From: Mayamaea pseudoterrestris
Taxonomy: Eukaryota
Assembly (NCBI GenBank): GCA_027923505.1
Contig: BROI01000001.1
Location: 186,001-250,000 of the forward strand
Reading direction: 5' to 3'
DNA length: 64,000 nucleotides
Part shown: positions 23,927-36,979 of the stretch, piece after piece
How positions within the stretch are numbered: position 1 is the first letter of the stretch
Layout: each line of letters begins with the position of its first letter
The notes under the pieces: generated by a model
Told to the model about the DNA's origin: nothing
The model's database searches: none
The model's input: only the letters and a program-made list of their open reading frames with translations
Position numbers and translations under genes: made by a program

Positions 23927-25180
23927 TTACCTCGAGCGGTACTGCGACGACGATGCCTCCGAATAGGCGTAGTTCGTACCAGCACCATTGTTCGAACTTG
24001 ACAAGCCATTCACAGGAGAATATGATATCGGAACAGATCCTCCTCCTCCTTGTTGATAGTGCGGCGGATGCTGCGGGTTGCTATAATCTCGTGCCGCAAA
24101 AGGAGTGGCGCAGGGGTTTGAGGGACCCTTCTCCGGCGAAAAGAATTGCGTCGGACGAAACGCTCCTTCCGGAATTGGCACATTCATGGCATTCTCCAGT
24201 GCCTCGTACAGCGGCTCGGCTGCCTTTGGACCCCGTTGACGCAGTAGCTCCTTGGCGTCGCAGGGGCATGCGTAAAACTTGGCATTCACATCGTTGCGCA
24301 CCGTGACAATGGAACCTTCCAGTGAAATACCAGCAAAGAGTCCTTGCGAGTGAGCGTAGGCATAGGCTGGATGCAGTGTCCAGTCGCCAGTCTGTTAGAG
24401 AAATAAAAGAAAGGTATGCGTCCGAGTCAGATCTTGTAAAAATGTCTCACGTCACGTCACTAAACAATCAAAAAAACAATGCACATACCGCAACTTGACC
24501 AGTCGCTCCCCGCCCGAGCGGACCAACCGCCACTCCAAGCTCCGCTCCCAACTGCATCGAGCTGGACGACACCAGGTCTTGCACCGCCTTGCTCGTCGTC
24601 AAAACGACCAAGTAGTGCGTCACGTCACCGCCAATCAAGGCGCCCCAGCCCATGCCAACCGTGCCGAGTGCACATGGTGCGCTCCAAACGGGACGAGCAT
24701 TGTTGCTGCTGCTGCTACTTCCACTAGTTGATGAACTTGTCGTTGCTGTTGCTGCTGCATTCGTTGGATCGTCCAGTCGCGCAATGACCAAGCCAGTTCC
24801 CACCCGACCCGAAACCATCAAACCCGCCTTTAGTACCGTCATGAACACGAGTCCGCGCGCCGCGTGCAGCAAGTCCAGCGGAATGCTCCTGTCGACGGAC
24901 TCGTAGACGCTTGGTCGTGCAGTTGATGCGGCACGAGTGTTGTGGTTAAACGGTTGCTCATGCTGCAAATGATGACTCGTCGTCGTTGTCATTGTCATGT
25001 TCAACAAAGTATGCGTCGCTTGTCGAATGCTGCTCGTCAAGGAAAAGCTAAAGGGATTGTGCCACTTCCAATCCGTGGTGGAACTGCTCGTAACGTGATT
25101 GCTGCTGGTGATAATTTGCTGACAGGGCGGCCGAAAGGGTTCCGTCAGAAATTGCCAAATTGCTTTCGCCACTTGCTGAA

Positions 25181-25214
<34 letters not shown>

Positions 25215-26048
25215 ACTCGTATTATTGCTATTGTAGTAATTGTACCACTCCAGCACATACACCAACCAAATGTCCAGCTGCGTCGTGCGATATTGCACGA
25301 GCGAGTCGTGCTTGTTGGGCGCCCAGGTGAGTGACGGCGTCCAGTTGCCCATGCGGCCGGCCCAGTGCTTGCCCGGAAACGTAATGACAGTGTCATTATC
25401 ATTGTTACTCTCGATAGCAGAATATAGTTTGATTTGGTGCTGCTCCAGCAACTGATGCAACTTGTCAAAGTCCGAGTAGCGTCGCTCCACCGTCCAGCAG
25501 TTGTTTGTTTGACGGTTTCCCATGGTTGGCGTCGATACTGTCGAATAGACAGAAGCTGCAGCGTTTCCCCGACTACCATCATCATTTTTCATCTGCACTT
25601 GCACCAGATAAGCCGTGTAGCGTGTGTGGCTGGCATCCAAGCGATCAGCGGCGCCGACAATGCGCACGACGCAAGTTCCTTGGAGTCGCTTGTCCTCCAG
25701 TGCCGACGATAGGCCTGTTCCGTGCGTCTGCCACTCGCGGCGCGCCTGAGCAGCTGCTGTTGTATTTGTAGTATTGGCTGCTGCTGCATGAGGTGTCTGC
25801 ATTGTATGAATAGCTGCAGCAGGACCGATGGAGGACGACGAAGCTGTCGCATGGACAAAGAGATTGGCGCTCGCTCCACTACTCGCGAGGGATTCGTCGT
25901 AGAAGGAACTATCGTTCAATATATGGGATTGCTGTTGCTGCTGCTGTTGATTATATTGTCGATGATGCTGCTCCATGTCGCTAATATTAATAGCATTCGC
26001 TCGAAGGGACGCAGCGTGGCGGAGGCTGGAGGAAAGACCTGATGGCAT
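23927..26048 (-). CDS. PX-domain plus SYLF (Ysc84/SH3YL1-type) protein; intron 24392-24488
   Basis: VERRYSDFDKLH (PX); KAGLMVSGRVGTGLVIARL, WSAP, AVGPLGR, spliced AYAHSQGLFAGISLEGS..RNDVNAKFY (SYLF). Confidence 0.9.
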
Positions 26049-26276
26049 GGTGCTTGATAATGTCGCTCTTGTTGTTTGCTCGATAATATAGAAGCGTCTA
26101 TGAGTGTTGCAATCGTTGTTGCTGATGAAAGACGTTCGATTGCTTCAACAAACGTGTCTCGATTTTCGCCGGTTCGCCATGGTCGACCGCGGCGACGGCA
26201 GGTGTCTTAGCGGTTTAACTAAACGTCACAGTGGTTATGATTTAAACGAAACGGATCAGTTTTGCGGATCCGTTTC

Positions 26277-26506
26277 TCCGGCTTAGAGCGGATGCACAGA
26301 GGAGCCCGCCCTAGGGACTACCCGTAGGAAACCTACGGGTAAAGTAGCAGACACAGTTTGGATGACATTGAGATTGCCGCTAGGACATTGCGATTGCTGC
26401 TGCGACACTTGGACATCCCTTTAAGCCATCGGCTTTCAGCGGCAAGCCATTCCTTTCGGATCAGCTCTTGCACCCTTGTTAGCAATAGCATCTCCGTTTT
26501 TGTTCC
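26277..26506 (+). repeat. Split direct repeat A1 (230 bp)
   Basis: Matches 34604-34833 except for a TT/CC dinucleotide. Confidence 0.95.
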
Positions 26507-26550
26507 TCGCCTGTAGCTTCAAACCGCTTTCTTTCCTCATCATCATCATC

Positions 26551-28269
26551 ATGCTCATTCGTCTTCGTTTTCCTTCCCTAGCTGAGTTCGGGGGTGCTCC
26601 TGTGGCCCTCTCATGGCCGGAGGAGATTGCCTTGCCGACCACGTGGCTTGGAACGGATAATGTTCCTCCTAAAGGAGAGCGCGCCAAGGCGATGGAGCTC
26701 CAGCTTGATGGAAGCTGGGACAAGGAGAAGGACAAGGAAAAAGTGCTCCACAAATGGTTGACAAAGGAGGAGTTTTATGCGCTCAACCAGCGCATGTCGG
26801 TCAAGACAAAGGAGCCTGACGACGACGACGCCAGCGACATTTACCTTGGCGCACTTGACAAGCTCAAAATGATGGGCAACGCCAACGTTGGCGCTATGAT
26901 TACTCTCTCAAGCTTCTCGATTCCAGGGCAAGTGCTCGCAGACAATCACGCTTTGATTTGCTCGGCGGCGCCCTCTGGTACTGCCAACGGCAACGCCTTT
27001 TTACTTCAAACAAACCAAGCCACTTTGGACGCATTGGATACATCTGCCGGAGCCAAGGAACCTTCCTTCTTGTTGGAAGCTTGGTCTCACTTGCAGCCAC
27101 TGAATGTCGCGGCTCCATCCAGCGTCAACCCAGTTGTCTCAATTTTGACACGAAACACGCGCGCCACTTTGGTGACTGCTCCTGCGACTCGGCATTCCGA
27201 AGTACTGCACGATGCCTTGGTCTTTGCCAATGGCTTAAAATTGACCCAGCCAGCTTGCTTCCTGGTCCACAAAGAGGACATTCCAAAGGATCACCCTGCT
27301 GGCAAGTATTTTCTGGGACCAACGCCTCCCACCTTCACTTCTGGTGACAAACCTTTCGCGATTGTGACAACAAAACGTCCTGTGACGACGGAAAATATGC
27401 CGGATCTGCGCACTCTTGTGCAGCAACGTGCGCTATTCATACCGAAAGGCCATCATGGCATCCCACTTGGGGTCCCTTTCGATCACTTGCGCTGCCACAC
27501 TGGAGCGCTCCTCAAGGCCTTCTGCATGGAGTTCACGGAGCTACCGGATGAGGCCTACGCTTGGATGATTGATAATCCAATTTTGGATACTTTTCTTGCA
27601 GCATGCGCCACCCAGGCATCGGCCATGAAGCTTGACACATTGTTCATGGCACAATTGCACGAGTCCTGGGAGAGTTGGAAACTTGAGCAATCATTGGACT
27701 CGCATCTTGCCATTCTCCATCCGGAAACAAAGATCCGCTTCAGTTGGATGTGGGATTACCTCCGGCATTCACTCACAAAACAGTGGGGAAACAAGCTAAC
27801 GCTTTATGAGCAAAAAGGAATGGCCATTCTCCAGCAGTCACCCGACATTGCCGAGTGGAATAAAGAGTTTCTCATGGACACTATCCATTTACCATTGCTC
27901 GTCAATCCCAAGGCAAAGTTGTGGATTGAAAACTTTCATATTCCTTTCCTTCGCCAAAATTTGCTGCCCATTTGGAATCGGTTTGCAAGTGTCGACCTGC
28001 CGGCGGAATCTTCCGACGATTTTATCGCTTCGCTGCGCATCGAATTGAAAGACAAGATTTCGGACGCGCAGTCTCCGTCATCCGCTGCAAAACATAATAG
28101 CCAACCGGCTCCAGCAGCATTGGATATTCTAGCGGCCATGGGCTTCTCACATACGGTAGCAACACCAAACCGGGCGCCCACTGTGGCGGAAGATGAACAA
28201 TCACCGCGCGCAATCGTAAACTCACACCTTCACCACCCGACAAGGCAAAAAGAGGAAGGCGCTGTTTGA
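26551..28269 (+). CDS. YR-retrotransposon ORF1, unknown function (gag-region)
   Basis: Long ORF starting just after A1 (first ATG 26551); no motif recognised. Confidence 0.75.
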   Translation: MLIRLRFPSLAEFGGAPVALSWPEEIALPTTWLGTDNVPPKGERAKAMELQLDGSWDKEKDKEKVLHKWLTKEEFYALNQRMSVKTKEPDDDDASDIYLGALDKLKMMGNANVGAMITLSSFSIPGQVLADNHALICSAAPSGTANGNAFLLQTNQATLDALDTSAGAKEPSFLLEAWSHLQPLNVAAPSSVNPVVSILTRNTRATLVTAPATRHSEVLHDALVFANGLKLTQPACFLVHKEDIPKDHPAGKYFLGPTPPTFTSGDKPFAIVTTKRPVTTENMPDLRTLVQQRALFIPKGHHGIPLGVPFDHLRCHTGALLKAFCMEFTELPDEAYAWMIDNPILDTFLAACATQASAMKLDTLFMAQLHESWESWKLEQSLDSHLAILHPETKIRFSWMWDYLRHSLTKQWGNKLTLYEQKGMAILQQSPDIAEWNKEFLMDTIHLPLLVNPKAKLWIENFHIPFLRQNLLPIWNRFASVDLPAESSDDFIASLRIELKDKISDAQSPSSAAKHNSQPAPAALDILAAMGFSHTVATPNRAPTVAEDEQSPRAIVNSHLHHPTRQKEEGAV

Positions 28270-28297
28270 CTATAGCGCGCAACAGAAGCTTGGCTAC

Positions 28298-29962
28298 ATG
28301 GACATCGAATACGAGGCCTACACTGACGACAAGTCGGTGGACTATCTTGGCACCAAACCGGCACAGAACTCGCCACCGCGAATGACATTTAAATTACCTG
28401 CGCGCAATACAGTTACAACAACTTCAAACTCAACGTTTCTGCTGCCATACGAGCAACCACACACCCAGTTGTTGCCCTATTTTACAATGGGCACAAAGAT
28501 GCTCTCTCGCAACATTGATTTTCTCTTTCCGGTTGCTTCTTCGCAACCCGACCGATTTAATCGCCAAGCCTACGTGGAGGATGGACTCTCCAACGCTATT
28601 GTCCTGGCTGCTCATTTTGGAGCCATTGCTGTCGATCCAAGATTTCACATGGGCCCACGAGATGACAGTAAAGGACATCGTTTCCCAGATTGGCAAGTTC
28701 TCATCCCAGGATACGTGTCAAAAAAGTATACCTTAAATGTACTCGAGTCGAAAATTCCCGGCCACGTGACAAACCATTTCAGCAACGAACTTCGCGCCGC
28801 TCAAAACTCCACAATGGAATCTTACGCGCGACCGAGCTTTGCCAACAACGACTTCTTCACCACACCTGATAACATAAAAGCACTGCAATCAGGTCTTTTC
28901 TTTGCAGGCGATGATCCAACCTGCACCTTTGATTCCTATATCAGCCCATGGAGCTTCATTCAAACGGTCCAAAAAACTGGGCACCGCTTCACACAGGAAG
29001 GCTTGGACTGCGCAAAATTAGCGCAACTGACAAAGAATATCGCATGGTTTTTCCATATCCACTTCACAAACCAAGTTCGATTCCCAGCACTGCGCGAGGT
29101 ACATCCTGAACTCTCACCTTGGCTACTCGCATCTCCATTCGCTGGTCAACTAGCTTGGCTGATCCAGCTCCTCGCTAACCAGCGCCTGCAAGAAACATGG
29201 TCCAACATGTCGACTGACAGAAAACTAACTTGCTCAATTGCTGTCATCAACTCTATCTGCAATTTATGGCGCATTGTTATTGACTGGGCCATGTCACTCG
29301 ACTCCGATGATCATTGTGTGCGAGTACTGCTTCACTCCCAACAGTCACGCTCCGACGTCTGCGCGTTCAAAATGTTTTTAGACAACAATGGCTTTGAACC
29401 ATTGAGTGAGGCACTTGCAGCATGGCGATCCAGCACCATGAGGGGAATTACCATTGAAAATCTTACAGCAAAGGAATTGCCCAATTTTGGGCCTTTTAAA
29501 CGGCAAGCCCCCACGGACGTCATGCCTGAGAAAGCAAAACATCACGACAAGTCATCCACCCAACCAAAAACCTCAACAAGTGGCGCCAGCCAACAGAATT
29601 CAGCCGCACAAAAGCGTGAAACAACCGGTACGTATTTAAAAGCTCCTGCTTCGTTGGCACGTTGGCGTGATGGCACCGACTGTTCCGGTGCCGCAGTTCG
29701 GAAACTTTTTCAACATTTGAGCCGCCGCACTCCCCCAATCCGAGCTCCAGTGTTTGAAGGAAAACAATTATGCCTTTTCCATGCGCTGCATGGATCCCCC
29801 GGGTGCGATGTAAAAGACTGTCCACGCCATCACATTGTGCTTCCAGACCCAACTGGAACTTGGACGCGCGAGAAACTTCGCCCGCTTCTTGATTTTTTTC
29901 GCAAGCCAGCGGTAGCGGCCATTTTGGAAACCTCAGCTGTGTTTAACGCGGCATCATCTTGA
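28298..29962 (+). CDS. YR-retrotransposon ORF2, gag-like with C-terminal Cys/His finger
   Basis: CLFHALHGSPGCDVKDCPRHH near the C-terminus; located directly before RT. Confidence 0.75.
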   Translation: MDIEYEAYTDDKSVDYLGTKPAQNSPPRMTFKLPARNTVTTTSNSTFLLPYEQPHTQLLPYFTMGTKMLSRNIDFLFPVASSQPDRFNRQAYVEDGLSNAIVLAAHFGAIAVDPRFHMGPRDDSKGHRFPDWQVLIPGYVSKKYTLNVLESKIPGHVTNHFSNELRAAQNSTMESYARPSFANNDFFTTPDNIKALQSGLFFAGDDPTCTFDSYISPWSFIQTVQKTGHRFTQEGLDCAKLAQLTKNIAWFFHIHFTNQVRFPALREVHPELSPWLLASPFAGQLAWLIQLLANQRLQETWSNMSTDRKLTCSIAVINSICNLWRIVIDWAMSLDSDDHCVRVLLHSQQSRSDVCAFKMFLDNNGFEPLSEALAAWRSSTMRGITIENLTAKELPNFGPFKRQAPTDVMPEKAKHHDKSSTQPKTSTSGASQQNSAAQKRETTGTYLKAPASLARWRDGTDCSGAAVRKLFQHLSRRTPPIRAPVFEGKQLCLFHALHGSPGCDVKDCPRHHIVLPDPTGTWTREKLRPLLDFFRKPAVAAILETSAVFNAASS

Positions 29963-30133
29963 CTCCACCAAGGTGAAGCACTCGATCTCGACACATCGTC
30001 TGCGACGCCGGCGGGCGCACAGGCAGCACAGGATGGGCCAAGCTCAACTTATCCCAATTGTGCCTTTTTAAATAACAACTATAGAAAAATCACACAAATT
30101 AACATTGAACTGGACTGCTGCAACAATGCTGAG

Positions 30134-33043
30134 ATGACACAATCGCCATCACCCGCGGCGCCAAGGAATATTGAACCAGCAAACGCTCTCGTGGAAATGA
30201 GGCACACGGTCCCACCGTCGGCTCCAGCCTCCGTACCCTATTGCGACCAAACCTTGCGCAACATTCTGCCACACATTCCACCAACTGGTGCGCGGCCAGT
30301 TCGACTCACCCGATGCACACATCGCAAACCAACTCGCGCCTCCTCTGTGACGCGATACAATTGGGATCATTTTCTGGCAACCATCATGGCCCCAGTTTGG
30401 CAATTTTTAACGGACCCTGAATCAGCAACCCTACAGTCTGCATATCCTGATTTCTTACATCCAGTCTTTGGTTCAACAACCGTCATGCATCCTGATCCTC
30501 GCATTTGGCTTCGACAAAAATATGGTTGGGGCAAAGCGACTCCTGATATTTCGACGCGACACGCACAGCCATCGCACCACATGACCTTACACCTGGTATG
30601 GCATTGGCTTACAGTCTCAGATCGCCAAACAATGGCTGCTGTTGAACCTTGTTGGGAAAAATACGCACTTCTGCGCCAGCGTGCAACAGCACGAGCCGTC
30701 CCACACCTACGTGTGCCACGCCTGTTTCCGGCTGACGACAATACGCCTATCAGCATGACTCGAGCAAACGACATGGGTGCAGCCCTTCTGCGCTTTGACT
30801 TTAACTATGGTGACTTACTGCGCTGGCTTGGTGGTGAATATACCTACCAGCACCAAGATCGCTCGCTACTCTGTGATGTCGTGGAAACACTACGCACCGC
30901 CTCGCGCCCACCGGATTATCCACCGGTGAAATTGGACGAAGCAATACGCATTATTCATGAAGGCGTTCCAGGTAAAAGCAACTTTGTTGGAAAATTTGAG
31001 GATGTTCGTGCACGAGAACAGCTTGACAACCGTCGTTTGGACGAGTGCTGGGACGACGTAACGGACAAATTCCGCAAGGAAGAAAAAATGTCATACCACA
31101 TAATGTTTCCTCGCTTTCTATGGAAGTTTATCCCAGGCTTGTTCCTTGCCATTATCTCCTACATCCCTCCAAAAGTGGGCCGTCTTGGTGATGAAGGGCG
31201 GATTGTATGCGATCCATCAAATCCAATTACAACAACAGACGAAGGCATGATTAACAAGCAAATTCCAGACGCTCTCCACCCAGACAGTGACCATTTCAAT
31301 CCAAGAGTGTATTACGGCACTGTGATGCGCCGCTATCTCCAGCTAATTTATAACATGCGCCTCGATAATCCGGACGATGAGATTTTTCTGGCTGCTGATG
31401 ACATTTCAGCTGCGTTCCGCTGGCTGCACTACCACCCAGACATTGCTGTGGCTTTTGCATCCATCCTTGGTCCATTTCTTGTCATCCCGGTGGGGCTAAT
31501 TTTTGGCGCACGAAACTCGCCAGGATACTACATGATCCTTGGTGAACTACGCAGCCAGATTGCTGCGCTCCTTGATATTGGCGAGGCCACCACCGACCTT
31601 TCAAATACAATAGTGCTAAGCGACGAGCCAACCAACGAGACCATTGCATCTTTTCAACAGTCAACGGCAGACTCCAAGAACATGGGTGTTCGCTCAATAC
31701 TTGGACGCGACTATAAATTTGGCTTTTCCAGCTTTGTCGACGATCAGGCTGTCGCGGCGACACGCGACACGATTTTGAACGCAATTACCAGAAGCGTCAT
31801 CGCGGCTCGCATTGTTTTTGGTGAACCAACTCCAGCAAGACGCGCTTTATGTATCAACCCACGCAAATGGAAAAGGGAAATTTCACACCAACTGCTCTAC
31901 TTGGGTCTTGATTGGGATTCGCGCCGTATGGAATTGTCTTGGCCTGCGGACAAACAGGCACGCTTGGCATCTCTCATTGATCGCCTCAGTGACAAACCAA
32001 CCGGTTTTCGGCCGGATTACATTACAGTCACGCCAGTGGAAAAGGCAGAAATATTGGATTTAATATGCCATGGAACTTTAGTCAGTGATCTTGCCGATTT
32101 CCGTTCCATCCGCCTACAGCAATCTCTCACTGACGCAGCAAGTAAAGCTGACGCAGCATTTCGCTCCAGCCCCAATGCGAACTTTGCTCGCCGTCAATGG
32201 TGGCGCAAAACAAGGATCGCTATATCAAAAGAGGCACTGGCCGACTTGCGCATTTTACGTCCAACTTTGAACACGGACAAATGGTCTCACGTATGGCGCA
32301 AGCCAATTGGTCTGCTCATTCCAAGGGTACCAACAAACACCATGAAAAGTGACGCGAGCATGTCTGGCATTGGAGGCTGGAACATTGAGCTCTTGTTTAT
32401 GTGGTGCCTCAACGCATCCGACCTGCTCAGTTGTAACATTCCAATGCGAGCATTCCATGAATTGGCACATCGCACCACTGGTGATCCACTCCATATCAAC
32501 ATTCTGGAGTTCATGGCCATTATAATAAATGTGATTCTCACGCTGAGTGCTTTAATGGCAAATCCACAAACCAAACACAACCAACATGTCATTAGCGTCT
32601 TGGCCGACAATACTTCGGCCCTTTCCTGGATGCGTCACGCTGCGCGCAGTCGGGATCCTGAAATTCGTAGGTTGGCACGATTCTTACATGCCATCACCAC
32701 TTACAGCTGTCTCACTTTCTGCATCCAGGGACGTCACTTGCCGGGAGCCAACAATGTGGAGGCGGACCGACTTTCTCGCTTCAAAACCTCGACGGAGTCG
32801 TGGGAGTCCGTTATCACGCCGGAAACGCAGGCGCTAGCAACATGCAGCATTTACCGAGTGGAGCGCGACTTGCTTTTGACAATCTCCTCCGTGATAGACG
32901 GGAGCGCGAACGAGGCGACATACGGTCCAAAAACGATAAAACGTTTGACAGCCGCGCCAAAAATTTTGGTGAATGGGCGATCGACGCAGGGTTTACGGAC
33001 GAGTCTCTTACAGCGCTCGCACCGGGGCAAGAAATCTCGGTAA
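30134..33043 (+). CDS. Reverse transcriptase / RNase H (DIRS-type)
   Basis: RT: GRIVCD, DDISAAFR, LIFGARNSP, FVDD, YLGLDWD. RNase H: SDAS..GIGG, HINILEF, ADNTSA, HLPGANNVEADRLSR. Confidence 0.95.
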   Translation: MTQSPSPAAPRNIEPANALVEMRHTVPPSAPASVPYCDQTLRNILPHIPPTGARPVRLTRCTHRKPTRASSVTRYNWDHFLATIMAPVWQFLTDPESATLQSAYPDFLHPVFGSTTVMHPDPRIWLRQKYGWGKATPDISTRHAQPSHHMTLHLVWHWLTVSDRQTMAAVEPCWEKYALLRQRATARAVPHLRVPRLFPADDNTPISMTRANDMGAALLRFDFNYGDLLRWLGGEYTYQHQDRSLLCDVVETLRTASRPPDYPPVKLDEAIRIIHEGVPGKSNFVGKFEDVRAREQLDNRRLDECWDDVTDKFRKEEKMSYHIMFPRFLWKFIPGLFLAIISYIPPKVGRLGDEGRIVCDPSNPITTTDEGMINKQIPDALHPDSDHFNPRVYYGTVMRRYLQLIYNMRLDNPDDEIFLAADDISAAFRWLHYHPDIAVAFASILGPFLVIPVGLIFGARNSPGYYMILGELRSQIAALLDIGEATTDLSNTIVLSDEPTNETIASFQQSTADSKNMGVRSILGRDYKFGFSSFVDDQAVAATRDTILNAITRSVIAARIVFGEPTPARRALCINPRKWKREISHQLLYLGLDWDSRRMELSWPADKQARLASLIDRLSDKPTGFRPDYITVTPVEKAEILDLICHGTLVSDLADFRSIRLQQSLTDAASKADAAFRSSPNANFARRQWWRKTRIAISKEALADLRILRPTLNTDKWSHVWRKPIGLLIPRVPTNTMKSDASMSGIGGWNIELLFMWCLNASDLLSCNIPMRAFHELAHRTTGDPLHINILEFMAIIINVILTLSALMANPQTKHNQHVISVLADNTSALSWMRHAARSRDPEIRRLARFLHAITTYSCLTFCIQGRHLPGANNVEADRLSRFKTSTESWESVITPETQALATCSIYRVERDLLLTISSVIDGSANEATYGPKTIKRLTAAPKILVNGRSTQGLRTSLLQRSHRGKKSR

Positions 33044-34101
33044 TTGCCGCATACATGTTTGATGTTGTTTCCAGGGGACAATCCCTGCTGGCTAAAAAGA
33101 AGTCACAAAAATTCACCACACAACAAGATCCCACGCCTCTCTGTACCAAATCATTGGTAACTTACCTGAACTCAGCCCATTCATTCCTGGAGACATTTGT
33201 ACAACGCAGATTTTCGATCCAAGACCCTCGCGGCTCGGGCCACCATCCCTTACTGGCTGATATTCTGGACAGTCGTCGGAAATGGCAAACAACCAAGGAA
33301 AAACGCGAGCCATACACACATCGCATGTTTGACTTCCTCTACCAGTCTGTTTGTGCAGCAGCCACCACGGACACAACGGCGCACCTGGATCTGGAAGCCT
33401 CTGTTCTTGACTGGACTTGCCTTGGCGTATTCACCGGATCACGTGCTAACGAATATGCACAGTCCACCGCCAAACGTGGCCACTTTAGCAAAGTACCCAA
33501 CAGCAGAGATGCTGGTCAATGGGCAGGTTGGCCATTAGGCTTTGTGGACCTCGACTTTGTTTATTATACAAAAAGCAACGTTCTCCTGCCACATTCCATG
33601 TTACATAAAGCAGGCGACAGTGCGTACGAATTACACATTCGTTTCCGGTTTGACAAAAGCCAAAACAATTTTACGATTCGCAAGTATCGACGCTTGGGTC
33701 ATAAATTAATCTGCCCTATCCGGGCCAGCATTTCGCTGATTCTACGTGCCAAAATCCTTCACAAAGCACCATACGCAGAACCACTTGGAGTTTTTCGCTA
33801 CAACAACAATGGCGACTACCATTACCTCCAGGCGCGCGATGTAATCCGTGTAACGCGGCAGGCAGTGATTGGCGCTTACCCAAACCCAAACCACTTCCTA
33901 CGACTCAACATTACACGAATTGTTGCACATTCAAATCGCGTTACGGCAGCGGTAGCACTCAATAACTCTGGTATGAGCATTGAAGAAATAGCGTTTCGCT
34001 TACGCTGGTCACCACCTTCGGTGCACCATTATTTACGTGAATGTTCAGAAAAAATTGGTACACTTACCAGCAATGCCATTAAAGGCGCAATAATGCTATA
34101 A
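32842..34101 (+). CDS. Tyrosine recombinase (DIRS-type integrase), overlapping the end of RT/RH
   Basis: Catalytic set R (GSRANEY), K (FDKS), HxxR (HSNR), RW and Y (RWSPPSVHHYLR); first ATG at 32842. Confidence 0.93.
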   Translation: MQHLPSGARLAFDNLLRDRRERERGDIRSKNDKTFDSRAKNFGEWAIDAGFTDESLTALAPGQEISVIAAYMFDVVSRGQSLLAKKKSQKFTTQQDPTPLCTKSLVTYLNSAHSFLETFVQRRFSIQDPRGSGHHPLLADILDSRRKWQTTKEKREPYTHRMFDFLYQSVCAAATTDTTAHLDLEASVLDWTCLGVFTGSRANEYAQSTAKRGHFSKVPNSRDAGQWAGWPLGFVDLDFVYYTKSNVLLPHSMLHKAGDSAYELHIRFRFDKSQNNFTIRKYRRLGHKLICPIRASISLILRAKILHKAPYAEPLGVFRYNNNGDYHYLQARDVIRVTRQAVIGAYPNPNHFLRLNITRIVAHSNRVTAAVALNNSGMSIEEIAFRLRWSPPSVHHYLRECSEKIGTLTSNAIKGAIML

Positions 34102-34371
34102 TAAAATTACACCTTTACATTTACCCATTCTTCCTTGCATTGGGAATTTGAGGATTGGACAATTCAAGTTTGCATCCAAGGGCACTGACTCCCCCGAGTT
34201 CAGCTCGTCCTGGCGCTCCTCACCTGACGTCCTCCCTTTCCCAACATTGCACTGACCAGGACCTTTTCTCCTTTCTTTCCCATGCTTCTTTCTTCTTCCT
34301 TTCCGCGGTTCTTGCCACAGGCACTCTGTTGTTGTGGCTTGACGCCTTCAGCCTTGCTCGCTGAGTCGTGT

Positions 34372-34603
34372 GGGTTGTGGCGAATCCTGCAAGACAGGAT
34401 TCTCCTCAGGCGTCATCCATGACGTGTCTCCTGCTCTGGGAACCCGGAGTCCACTCCGTGTTCCTCAAACCATGCGACCCGACTCTCGCTACACTCGTCG
34501 AGCCACCTGAGGCACGAGCAAGTCTAAGCGCGCCAACGCGCGCAACACTTTGGAAGAACGAAGCAGCCGAGCGACGGAGGGCAATCAGCGCCCACGCTGA
34601 TTG
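34372..34603 (+). repeat. Split direct repeat B1 (232 bp)
   Basis: Identical by eye to 34847-35078. Confidence 0.95.
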
Positions 34604-34833
34604 TCCGGCTTAGAGCGGATGCACAGAGGAGCCCGCCCTAGGGACTACCCGTAGGAAACCTACGGGTAAAGTAGCAGACACAGTTTGGATGACATTGAGA
34701 TTGCCGCTAGGACATTGCGATTGCTGCTGCGACACTTGGACATCCCTCCAAGCCATCGGCTTTCAGCGGCAAGCCATTCCTTTCGGATCAGCTCTTGCAC
34801 CCTTGTTAGCAATAGCATCTCCGTTTTTGTTCC
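34604..34833 (+). repeat. Split direct repeat A2 (230 bp)
   Basis: Copy of A1, directly abutting B1. Confidence 0.95.
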
Positions 34834-34846
34834 CCCCCACCCACCC

Positions 34847-35078
34847 GGGTTGTGGCGAATCCTGCAAGACAGGATTCTCCTCAGGCGTCATCCATGACGT
34901 GTCTCCTGCTCTGGGAACCCGGAGTCCACTCCGTGTTCCTCAAACCATGCGACCCGACTCTCGCTACACTCGTCGAGCCACCTGAGGCACGAGCAAGTCT
35001 AAGCGCGCCAACGCGCGCAACACTTTGGAAGAACGAAGCAGCCGAGCGACGGAGGGCAATCAGCGCCCACGCTGATTG
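34847..35078 (+). repeat. Split direct repeat B2 (232 bp), right end of the element
   Basis: Copy of B1, separated from A2 by a 13-nt C-rich spacer. Confidence 0.95.
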
Positions 35079-35267
35079 ATTTTTTCCACAGCTTGAGCAG
35101 ATCGTTCACTATAAACACGACCATTCACACTGCTACATCTGTTGAAAACTCGACGATTTTATACACGCAAGGCCAAATATGTTTTCATAGCATAAACGCT
35201 TACGAACGTTTTAGGCGCTTCAACGATGCACGAAGCAGTCGTCGCGCGCAGTTTACAGCACCATCAT

Positions 35268-36301
35268 TTATTTCCATATATTTTCATGACAATGCACCAA
35301 CAACTCGCGCGCCACGTTATTGATATGGGCGAACCGTTTTGGTCCAAGCGAAATTCCACCAAACCATCGCGACACCACGACCAAAACGTTTGTTTCGCGT
35401 CGAAGCTCCAGCAAGTGACCAAGGCGAGACCCGGCAGTTGTTGTAGCAGTTTCTGGTGTGGCGCTGTCGTGGTGAATGATTGTTTCGTGAAGATGTGCAA
35501 TCGAAGGTTTACTGCTTGCTTTTTGTTGATGCGGAACCGTCTCCAGTATTCGATATGTCCACTGAAAAGAGTGACACAAGTAGAACAATGAAATGCATTT
35601 GATAGTGGTTTATCATGTGAATAGCAGCTTTTTTGACGTACCATGTTGTGCGTGGCTTTCTGAAGCTTGTTGTTGCTGGATAGCAGCTGCTGCAGGGCAG
35701 GTTGAACGTCGGCTTCGCAATGTAGTCGACAAACATGCGCGACAAAGGTGGACTTTCTGTCATGCAACGGTTCTCCAGTGATCCAAGTATATGCATTTGA
35801 AGATGATTCGGTTGGACAAGGCGAACATGCATTTTGATGCGTCGTCATTTCGTTCCTGTTCCTGGTCGGTTCTGTTTTACGCGACTCGTCCAACGGTGCT
35901 GCAGACATGGATCCATCGGCCATCACTTGACTATTCCAAGTATCAAGTGCTGCGGAAACGCAAGCAAAGGATCCTTCCACTCCATCTTCGAGACATTGAT
36001 TTGCTATAGAGCGAACGATCGACACGGTGTCATCCATTCGGTTCTTCTCGTCGGGACTGCTCCGATACGACGAAATCTGGATATTAGTTTCAGCTGGATA
36101 TCCTTTAACTATCTCAAGAATGATGCGAGCTGACGAAGATAGGTGAAGAGTCCATTGCAAGGGAAAGAAGCAAGTTGCATCGTGTGCAGTCGCAAGCAGT
36201 TTTTGACGAGTCGATTCGTCAACCTCGATTTCATCGGGATAGGCAGCCAGTAGCATTTCCAAATCAGCTTTAGCTTGTTCCACTGACTCTTGTTGGTCCA
36301 T
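35268..36301 (-). CDS. IMPACT/YIH1-like protein (RWD plus UPF0029 domain); intron 35562-35641
   Basis: ELEML.AAYP-like and GYP (RWD); DRKSTFVAH, KATHNM|WTYR, AGSRL..LL, VVVSRWFGGISLGPKRFAHI. Confidence 0.88.
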
Positions 36302-36979
36302 CTCGAGGTGACAAACTACTATAAACGAGTAGGAAGGCAGCCATTAGGAATTAGGACACGCCATTCGCGATCATTATGGTGAATCTCGTCCCAAGCGAAG
36401 AAACACCGTCGGACAAAGTCGCACCGTTATCGGTGAAAGCACGATTCAGCTACCCATTGGCTGCCTTGCTTGCTCCAAACGACGTGTAGCACAATACATG
36501 TTGCTGAACCCGCCCCATAAAATTGTCACCGCCCTACAAATGTAACGATTGCCATACATTTTAATAAAGTTTATGGCTGAGGTGTCGGGTCACTGCCTCC
36601 TTGTCATCATCTGCTGCAGTGCAATTGACTTTCGTTCATTGTCGCATTGCAGTCAACCGAGGGATCAGCCAGGCATTCTATTTGTAGTAGACGGTCGGAA
36701 ATGTCGCAAGAGGACGGTCTAGAATGGTGCTGGCGCCACCCTTATGTGGTTCGGAGTATCTCTTTGTATCGTGCTTGTGTTTGCACGATTGATCGAAAAC
36801 TCGTTCCTTCCACTCTACTTATTCTAATTATGCTGAGTGTCTTATAATATCAGTCATTCTTTAATAGTAAATCGTTTTCTATGCATGTTAACTAAAACGC
36901 TGAATCAACACAAAGATCGCTTTAAAACGACCAGGGACTCTAGCGCCAAAACCAGATTTTTTTCTGGAGACAAAGTGCT

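What the first reader, a model, noticed from the sequence alone, without database searches (positions are those of the whole stretch)
34372..34603. B repeat is densely structured, with a possible pseudoknot
Seen: stems GAATCCTG/CAGGATTC, CGTCAT/ATGACG, GGAAC-CGGAGT/ACTCCG-GTTCC, enclosed by an imperfect GGGTTGTGG/CCATGCGACCC pairing. A following GACT..CTCGT/ACGAG..AGTC stem has a loop containing CCTGAGG, complementary to CCTCAGG in the first domain. GCGCG/CGCGC and the terminal 9-bp hairpin follow. Inference: a functional RNA or ssDNA element for 3'-end formation, RT priming, strand transfer or self-cleavage. No PBS or PPT is apparent, and priming in these elements is poorly understood.
Basis: partly seen in the sequence, partly recalled or inferred. 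Interest (0 to 1): 0.7.

Follow-up and report, generated by a model that had tools for sequence, protein, structure and literature searches.

The report
Conserved fold around retrotransposon end junction
The stretch is the end repeat of a jumping gene, and together with its neighbours it forms a conserved folded structure around the exact point where the element's two ends are joined, which offers a testable handle on how this little-understood kind of element copies itself.

Summary
B is the 3' split repeat of an intact 8.8-kb tyrosine-recombinase retrotransposon (A1-ORFs-U-B1-A2-spacer-B2) in a diatom-like genome. The listed stems exist and B folds better than shuffles (z -3.4). The named pseudoknot is not supported: 62.5% paired, no compensatory change, and 80% of shuffles hold such a 7-mer.

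The conserved structure reaches outside B. A blind scan of 17 related elements found three helices among 24,060 candidates (coding control: 0 of 46,151). One is B's terminal hairpin, extended across the B|A junction. The other two are long-range helices that dock the first hairpin of A into an internal loop of U, about 440 nt upstream; 4 of 6 pairs change on both sides in one, while the other barely varies. The A2/B2 spacer is a conserved G-quadruplex motif on the cDNA strand.

Best reading (0.5): a sense-strand scaffold that presents the element's ends for template jumping and circle formation. No Rfam match, known-ribozyme motif, tRNA primer site or RNA data. The scan already noted this element family and the terminal hairpin. 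Two earlier notes on other B repeats saw only local hairpins. I found no note or paper on the docking or the quadruplex spacer.

The parts
26277..26506 (+). A1 repeat; left end of the element (first base T)
   Evidence: the same start in 9 of 9 left ends found; A1 and A2 diverge at A position ~231
26551..28269 (+). ORF1, gag-position ORF, no family assigned
28220..29962 (+). ORF2 (580 aa stop to stop), with a Cys/His-rich C-terminal motif
   Evidence: no Pfam match above cut-off
29963..33043 (+). Reverse transcriptase and RNase H ORF
   Evidence: model pLDDT 84; best fold match CaMV RT 8r0s, E 2.4e-9; no Pfam hit in 39 members
32671..34101 (+). Tyrosine recombinase ORF
   Evidence: R, K, H-x-x-R and W invariant and Y at least 90% conserved in 59 homologues; weak Phage_integrase hit, E 0.072
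34163..34227 (+). 'Pocket' in U: outer stem, internal loop, inner hairpin
   Evidence: constrained folds gave this shape, judged by eye, in most of 17 variants
34172..34177 (+). Guide strand U1 (GCATCC), pairs with A14-19
   Evidence: 99% paired, 4 of 6 pairs with double-sided changes; top helix of the blind scan
34216..34221 (+). Guide strand U2 (CTCCTC), pairs with A23-28
   Evidence: 96% paired but nearly invariant, no double-sided change in the MAFFT register
34283..34310 (+). Pyrimidine arm of U that pairs with the purine arm of B1 (U-B rod)
   Evidence: folds; swap test p=0.003, but cognate ranks first in only 3 of 11
34372..34603 (+). B1 repeat (the finding): local multibranch, variable middle, purine arm, GCGACNGAGGG motif, terminal hairpin
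34404..34512 (+). Proposed pseudoknot CCTCAGG/CCTGAGG: not supported
34579..34606 (+). Junction helix: GGG-CAATC...GATTG|TCC; the B|A junction (34603|34604) lies next to a G.U pair
   Evidence: G.T in 24 of 24 variants; double-sided changes at four well-paired positions; motif in 21 of 82 outside loci, 0 in shuffled loci
34604..34831 (+). A2 repeat; its first hairpin (about 34609-34642) displays the docking loop 34617-34631
34832..34846 (-). Spacer of four C3 runs, a G-quadruplex motif on the cDNA strand; the A repeat ends where it begins
   Evidence: only strict four-run motif in the 64-kb window; strict in 10 of 11 own-clade units and in 4 of 4 distant-clade copies where the motif was found
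34847..35078 (+). B2 repeat; right end of the element is the last base of the terminal hairpin
   Evidence: the same end in 11 of 11 right ends found

Best explanation
B is the middle of a roughly 490-nt cis-acting fold on the sense strand (U-B1-start of A2) of a split-direct-repeat tyrosine-recombinase retrotransposon. The fold holds the B|A junction, the internal copy of the element's joined ends. SHOWN (by sequence comparison): exact ends at this junction; a covarying helix across it; a covarying long-range helix from U to the A loop; a conserved second helix beside it; a conserved four-run C tract between A2 and B2. INFERRED: (1) it works in the transcript; (2) because A1 equals A2 and B1 equals B2, the scaffold can take the RNA's own 5' end (A1) into the pocket and its 3' end (B2) into the junction helix, giving a nicked helix across which RT jumps, or it serves as the B1-A2 splint that closes the cDNA circle; (3) first-strand synthesis may start by snap-back at the terminal hairpin; (4) the quadruplex on the cDNA stalls second-strand synthesis at the end of A2, so the B1-A2 piece can move to the A1 copy; (5) the recombinase inserts the circle at G|T without a target duplication.
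For: U1:A14-19: 101 of 102 cells paired, 4 of 6 pairs with double-sided changes; whole structure 0 of 500 shuffles as high on percent paired and covariation score; slid controls 32-45% paired. Blind scan: 6 of 24,060 candidate 6-bp helices reach 95% pairing and fall into exactly three helices; recombinase coding DNA of the same 17 loci gives 0 of 46,151 at 90%. On the recombinase tree I count at least 6 independent double changes. Junction helix across 24 variants. G.T versus A.C cells 13 to 3 favour the sense strand (A stem 12 to 3). Ends exact in 9 left and 11 right ends. The A repeat ends where the C tract starts in the 5 full copies with an undeleted A1. The C-tract motif is shared with a clade whose recombinase is only 24-27% identical. 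In DIRS-1 the equivalent internal junction (ICR) is needed after first-strand synthesis, and the primer is unknown (PMC7192593, passages).
Against: No functional or RNA data. U2:A23-28 is almost invariant, so its pairing is not independently proven. Seven more divergent relatives (L069, L083, L101, L109, L112, L114, L127) keep the junction helix but have a different A loop; they were left out of the pocket count, and by eye no clear pocket was seen. L077 has one uncompensated mismatch, and A1 of L061 has another by eye. L066 sits on a long branch (0.81), so two of the six events are less sure. Loops look DNA-like: 0 of 38 tetraloops are GNRA or UUCG on +, while C-closed GNA triloops occur 4 times on + and 6 times on -, and B folds better as DNA. 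B1 and B2 differ inside the terminal hairpin in one copy (L138). Outside relatives have only 3/3/2/3 C runs, and solo unit L145 lacks the strict motif.
Confidence: 0.5

Rival explanations
1. The fold is a packaging, translation or 3'-end switch that masks the internal copies (B1, A2), so that only A1 and B2 act as RNA ends. It has no direct part in end joining.
For: Only B1 and A2 lie next to U, so the rod and pocket make identical repeats behave differently. There is a weak leader-U complementarity of 8-9 nt, p=0.039.
Against: It does not explain why a helix with an invariant G.U is conserved exactly across the end junction, or the quadruplex motif on the cDNA strand.
Confidence: 0.2
2. The fold is a folded single-stranded DNA substrate for the recombinase or for end ligation, like integron attC sites (recalled).
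For: DNA folding z of -4.2 and -6.0; GNA triloops and no GNRA loops; terminal loop of free length; no target duplication; DIRS-1 cDNA is single-stranded (PMC7192593, abstract passage).
Against: The stem is only 6-7 bp plus 3 bp in several relatives, too short for two recombinase monomers plus a spacer (inference). On the cDNA strand the wobble pairs become A.C, up to 3 of 6 in L063.
Confidence: 0.13
3. The fold is a new large ribozyme that cuts or ligates at the B|A junction, or offers a 2'-OH primer, with the pocket docking the substrate.
For: Invariant G.U at the junction in 24 of 24; two guide strands dock a substrate-like loop 13 nt away; conserved single-strand motifs GCGACNGAGGG and CAACC.
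Against: No Rfam match. Recalled ribozyme core motifs hit at most 2 of 17 variants on +. No GNRA loops, and the 2-4 unpaired bases between the docked helices vary freely.
Confidence: 0.12
4. B holds only local hairpins, and the long-range pairs are products of shared ancestry.
For: Compensation inside B alone is weak (6 of 61 pairs, 101 of 500 shuffles), and RNAalifold on B does not recover the enclosing helix.
Against: A control with the same ancestry gave 0 of 46,151 helices, and four different pairs change on both sides.
Confidence: 0.04

Closest known systems
Ngaro-like (and PAT-like, VIPER-like) split-direct-repeat retrotransposons, DIRS order
   Same: A1-ORFs-B1-A2-B2 layout, RT/RNase H followed by an overlapping tyrosine recombinase, solo A-B units (PMC8547959, PMC9210276, PMC6681497, PMC3783388; passages read).
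   Different: Two ORFs precede RT, and the RT escapes Pfam. None of the passages read mentions a conserved fold or a quadruplex spacer in the repeats.
DIRS-1 internal complementary region (ICR) and 3' hairpin
   Same: An internal copy of the joined ends, essential after first-strand synthesis; a 3' hairpin has been proposed as primer (PMC7192593, passages).
   Different: The ICR is an inverted copy that pairs with the termini. Here the junction is a direct copy held in a tertiary fold by separate guide strands.
H/ACA snoRNA pockets, inverted snR30/U17 type (recalled)
   Same: An internal loop whose two strands each bind about 6 nt of one target strand with 2-4 unpaired bases between.
   Different: Acts in cis; the unpaired bases face the outer stem; no Rfam match; H and ACA boxes were not looked for.
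IS110 bridge RNA target loop (recalled)
   Same: Two guide strands in one internal loop, next to a recombinase gene.
   Different: Both guides here are complementary to the same strand and to the element's own sequence, and the enzyme is a tyrosine recombinase.
Ty1 5'-3' cyclisation and pseudoknot elements
   Same: Long-range pairing in a retrotransposon RNA linked to replication (search listing; details recalled).
   Different: Ty1 has LTRs, a tRNA primer and a DDE integrase.

Membership tests
Ngaro-like YR retrotransposon | Split direct repeats A1...B1 A2 B2 | tested here: met
Ngaro-like YR retrotransposon | RT plus RNase H of LTR-element type | tested here: met
   (fold); not detected by Pfam or PDB sequence search
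Ngaro-like YR retrotransposon | Tyrosine recombinase ORF after RT with catalytic residues | tested here: met
Ngaro-like YR retrotransposon | No adenine methyltransferase domain (separates it from PAT and DIRS) | tested here: inconclusive
   No Pfam hit, but Pfam also misses the RT; the first 345 aa of the RT ORF were not modelled
Ngaro-like YR retrotransposon | RT groups with reference Ngaro elements in a tree | not testable with these tools
   No reference Ngaro or PAT sequences were obtained
Known small ribozymes (hammerhead, HDV-like, twister, pistol, hatchet) | Rfam model match or conserved catalytic core | tested here: not met
   recalled core motifs in at most 2 of 17 variants on +
Group I and II introns | Conserved core motifs | tested here: not met
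   0 of 17 for two recalled motifs; Rfam none
tRNA-primed retroelement | Primer-binding site complementary to a tRNA 3' end | tested here: not met
   Longest match 7 nt in the window's 3' region and 9 in the whole element; 30 of 50 tRNA genes tested. A 10-nt match with wobble pairs to the Met tRNA 5' half occurs in 2 of 5 subfamilies only
G-quadruplex motif | Four G3 runs with short loops | tested here: met
   (sequence motif only; folding not tested)
attC-like single-strand recombination site | Hairpin long enough for two binding boxes, with extrahelical bases | tested here: inconclusive
   Stem of 6-11 bp plus 3 bp; no biochemical test

The most novel reading that the evidence does not exclude
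U-B1-A2 is a new class of catalytic or guide RNA. Its two-strand pocket captures the RNA's own 5' end and sets it against the 3' terminal hairpin, so that the RNA (alone or with the RT) primes, joins or cuts at the G.U-marked junction, while a cDNA quadruplex times the second jump.
Probability: 0.15. Interest if true: 0.9.

Novelty: new variant of a known kind. Interest (0 to 1): 0.64.

Why it matters
How tyrosine-recombinase retrotransposons start reverse transcription and rebuild their ends is an open question; for DIRS-1 no primer is known (PMC7192593). This locus supplies specific, mutable base pairs with natural compensatory variants (the 6-bp dock, the junction helix and the four C runs), so the end-joining model can be tested directly. 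The fold has no Rfam model. If it proves catalytic, or a guide for template jumping, it would be a new functional RNA class.

Tried and rejected
Named pseudoknot: rejected. CCTG is kept in the matching loop of most own-genome subfamilies and a CAGG lies nearby, but not at a homologous place, so a weak 3-6 bp contact is not excluded.

Rfam: no match near a gathering score in the element or in 8 relatives. tRNA primer site, whole or half tRNA: not conserved.

RNA evidence: no RNA holder listed; the four runs laid are contigs of unrecorded kind and say nothing on expression or ends.

Viral contigs: no relatives by protein or by pattern. Sequence searches of the RT found nothing in Pfam or PDB. 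The single-sequence recombinase model was unusable (pLDDT 30). No covariance model was built, because the alignment has 702 columns.

The MAFFT alignment of B's variable middle across distant clades is unreliable, so one search is not used for or against those stems. The A-stem count was off by one for three rows and was redone.

Host hairpin at the left flank: strong in 1 of 9 flanks, weaker in one more. The sigma-70 and terminator scan is not relevant to a eukaryote.

Full report
WHAT THE STRETCH IS. The finding is B1 of an intact 8,802-bp element at 26277-35078 with the layout A1 - ORF1 - ORF2 - RT/RNase H - tyrosine recombinase - unique region U - B1 - A2 - spacer - B2. B1 and B2 are identical over 232 bases. 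The RT ORF has no Pfam or PDB sequence match, but its model (pLDDT 84) matches LTR-type RTs, best CaMV RT at E 2.4e-9. The recombinase keeps R, K, H-x-x-R, W and Y across 59 homologues. The nearest named RT relatives are hypothetical proteins labelled as from the diatom Mayamaea pseudoterrestris. The layout is that of Ngaro-like and PAT-like elements (PMC8547959, PMC9210276, PMC6681497, PMC3783388; I read passages returned by term searches, not whole texts or supplements). The two groups could not be separated without reference sequences.

CHECK OF THE OBSERVATION. All listed stems are there. B folds better than shuffles as RNA (z -3.42 on +, -2.99 on -) and as DNA (-4.21, -6.02), while 31 ORF windows average -0.25. 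G000 holds several diverged subfamilies (26 DNA matches; 25 recombinase matches). On 11 B copies the enclosing helix, the first three hairpins and the terminal hairpin are 80-98% paired, GCGCG/CGCGC is 60.5% paired, and only 6 of 61 pairs change on both sides, which 101 of 500 shuffles equal. The pseudoknot is 62.5% paired with no double change; a sister copy has lost CCTGAGG from B1; and 79.8% of 2,000 shuffles contain a 7-mer complement. The local stems stand; the pseudoknot does not.

RELATIVES. A recombinase profile found 227 relatives in metagenome contigs, of which the best 80 were returned, plus 2 in genome contigs. A hairpin-plus-A-start motif occurs in 21 of these 82 loci, always on the sense strand, and in none after shuffling. 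Many of the other loci end soon after the recombinase, so misses say little. For pair counts I used 17 variants (7 own genome, 10 metagenome) that hold U, B1 and a GAGGAG-type A loop. I left out near-duplicates (L052, L053, L064, L067, L099), L058 (U missing), L061 and L130 (no A after B) and seven divergent relatives with a different A loop (L069, L083, L101, L109, L112, L114, L127).

THE CONSERVED STRUCTURE. U folds as outer stem, internal loop, inner hairpin. The loop's 5' strand U1 (34172-77) is complementary to A14-19 (34617-22, also 26290-95), and its 3' strand U2 (34216-21) to A23-28. A14-28 is the loop of the first hairpin of A (77 of 91 stem cells paired). I first saw these pairings by eye, so the tests that matter are those on a sequence-only MAFFT alignment. 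There U1:A14-19 is 99% paired and 4 of 6 pairs change on both sides; 0 of 500 shuffles reach the observed pairing or covariation score, and slid controls give 32-45%. A blind scan of 24,060 candidate 6-bp helices found 6 at 95% pairing or more: U1:A14-19 (top), four overlapping windows of the junction helix, and U2:A23-28. The recombinase coding DNA of the same loci gave 0 of 46,151 at 90%. On the recombinase tree I count at least six independent double changes, two of which depend on the place of long-branch L066. U2:A23-28 is 96% paired but nearly invariant, so it is conserved rather than proven.

THE JUNCTION AND THE STRAND. The terminal hairpin continues three pairs across the B|A junction. 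In 24 variants the pair next to the junction is always G.T, and four well-paired positions change on both sides. A looser rod pairs U's pyrimidine arm with B's purine arm (swap p=0.003; cognate first in only 3 of 11). Wobble pairs favour the sense strand 13 to 3. Against a purely RNA reading, 0 of 38 tetraloops are GNRA or UUCG on +, and C-closed GNA triloops, a DNA-hairpin trait (recalled), occur on both strands.

ENDS AND SPACER. The element starts at the first base of A in 9 of 9 left ends and stops at the last base of the hairpin in 11 of 11 right ends; by eye there is no target duplication in the 8 units with both ends. The spacer 34832-34846 is the only strict run of four C3 tracts in the 64-kb window, which is a quadruplex motif on the cDNA strand. 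It is strict in 10 of 11 own-clade units (L145 is the miss) and in four copies of a second clade whose recombinase is 24-27% identical; a fifth stretch of that search (L152) shows none. Metagenome relatives have 3/3/2/3 runs. A1 and A2 stop matching where the tract begins in the 5 full copies with an undeleted A1.

HOW IT MOST LIKELY WORKS (0.5). The fold makes a scaffold around the internal copy of the joined ends. Since A1 equals A2 and B1 equals B2, it can exchange in the RNA's true ends, leaving a nicked helix for an RT jump, or it can act as the B1-A2 splint that closes the cDNA circle. The quadruplex would stop second-strand synthesis at the end of A2, and the recombinase would then insert the circle at G|T. 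The pairings, ends and motif are shown by comparison; every step of the mechanism is inferred. In DIRS-1 the analogous ICR is essential after first-strand synthesis, the primer is unknown, and a 3' hairpin has been proposed as primer (PMC7192593; passages). Rivals: masking or packaging switch 0.2, single-strand DNA substrate 0.13, ribozyme 0.12, ancestry only 0.04.

NOVELTY. There is no Rfam match, no known-ribozyme core (recalled motifs) and no tRNA primer site. Eight full-text searches (listings only, apart from the five papers named) showed no description of such a fold or spacer in YR retrotransposons. The original Goodwin and Poulter papers and Repbase notes were not read and could mention parts of it. 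The element class is known, and this scan has noted the family and the terminal hairpin before. Two earlier notes judged other B repeats to hold local hairpins only; that agrees with my result for B alone but not for U-B1-A2. Verdict: new variant of a known kind, interest 0.64.

Noticed in passing
window 26522-26527 with 34305-34310; L136, L137, L144, L061, L065, L098: The leader just after A1 is complementary (8-9 nt in relatives, different sequences in different groups) to U, a possible 5'-3' pairing. Swap test p=0.039; the cores are partly palindromic.
   Followed up: partly
L148-L151 (G000 C17, C12, C5, C24): A second, distant clade of split-repeat YR elements shares the four-C-run spacer and shows a U-B pairing of up to 10 bp by eye, but has a different fold.
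   Followed up: partly
L066:986 and 10779; L098:2311; L127; L139: Head-to-tail B2|A1 joints and extra A-spacer-B units, as expected from insertion into a junction, rolling copies or assembly collapse.
   Followed up: no
L136, L137, L143-L146: Many own-genome copies sit in two satellite repeat families; in L136 and L145 the flanks rejoin a satellite unit without duplication (by eye).
   Followed up: partly
L007:1721, L139:9494, run X4 loose end at window 34604: Three right flanks begin with CCGG, like the start of A, and 8 of 11 right flanks begin with C: possible target preference.
   Followed up: no
L068, L069, L073, L078, L080, L083, L091, downstream of the recombinase: These relatives carry 1-2 kb of extra sequence after the recombinase that looks like an antisense ORF (by eye; not translated).
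   Followed up: no
window 26248-26276: A strong host hairpin ends exactly at the left boundary; only 1 of 9 left flanks is this strong.
   Followed up: yes
window 34371-34380: The U|B1 border pairs over 10 nt (with wobble pairs) with Met tRNA positions 31-40 in two of five subfamilies; not conserved further.
   Followed up: yes
L150:4505-5917: An ORF that starts with the window subfamily's ORF1 N-terminus and continues into the distant clade's element: nested or chimeric insertion.
   Followed up: no
L033, L035, L045, L088 (U, about 20 nt before B1): A 10-nt palindrome CAGCTAGCTG, or a near form, recurs just upstream of B1 in own-genome subfamilies (not in L088-type relatives at that place): possible dimerisation or protein site.
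   Followed up: no
window 29963-33043: This RT family is invisible to Pfam (0 of 39 members), so automated annotation will miss these elements.
   Followed up: yes
window 24468-26144 (-) and 35264-36343 (-): Flanking host genes: a PX plus Ysc84 protein and a UPF0029 (IMPACT-like) protein.
   Followed up: no
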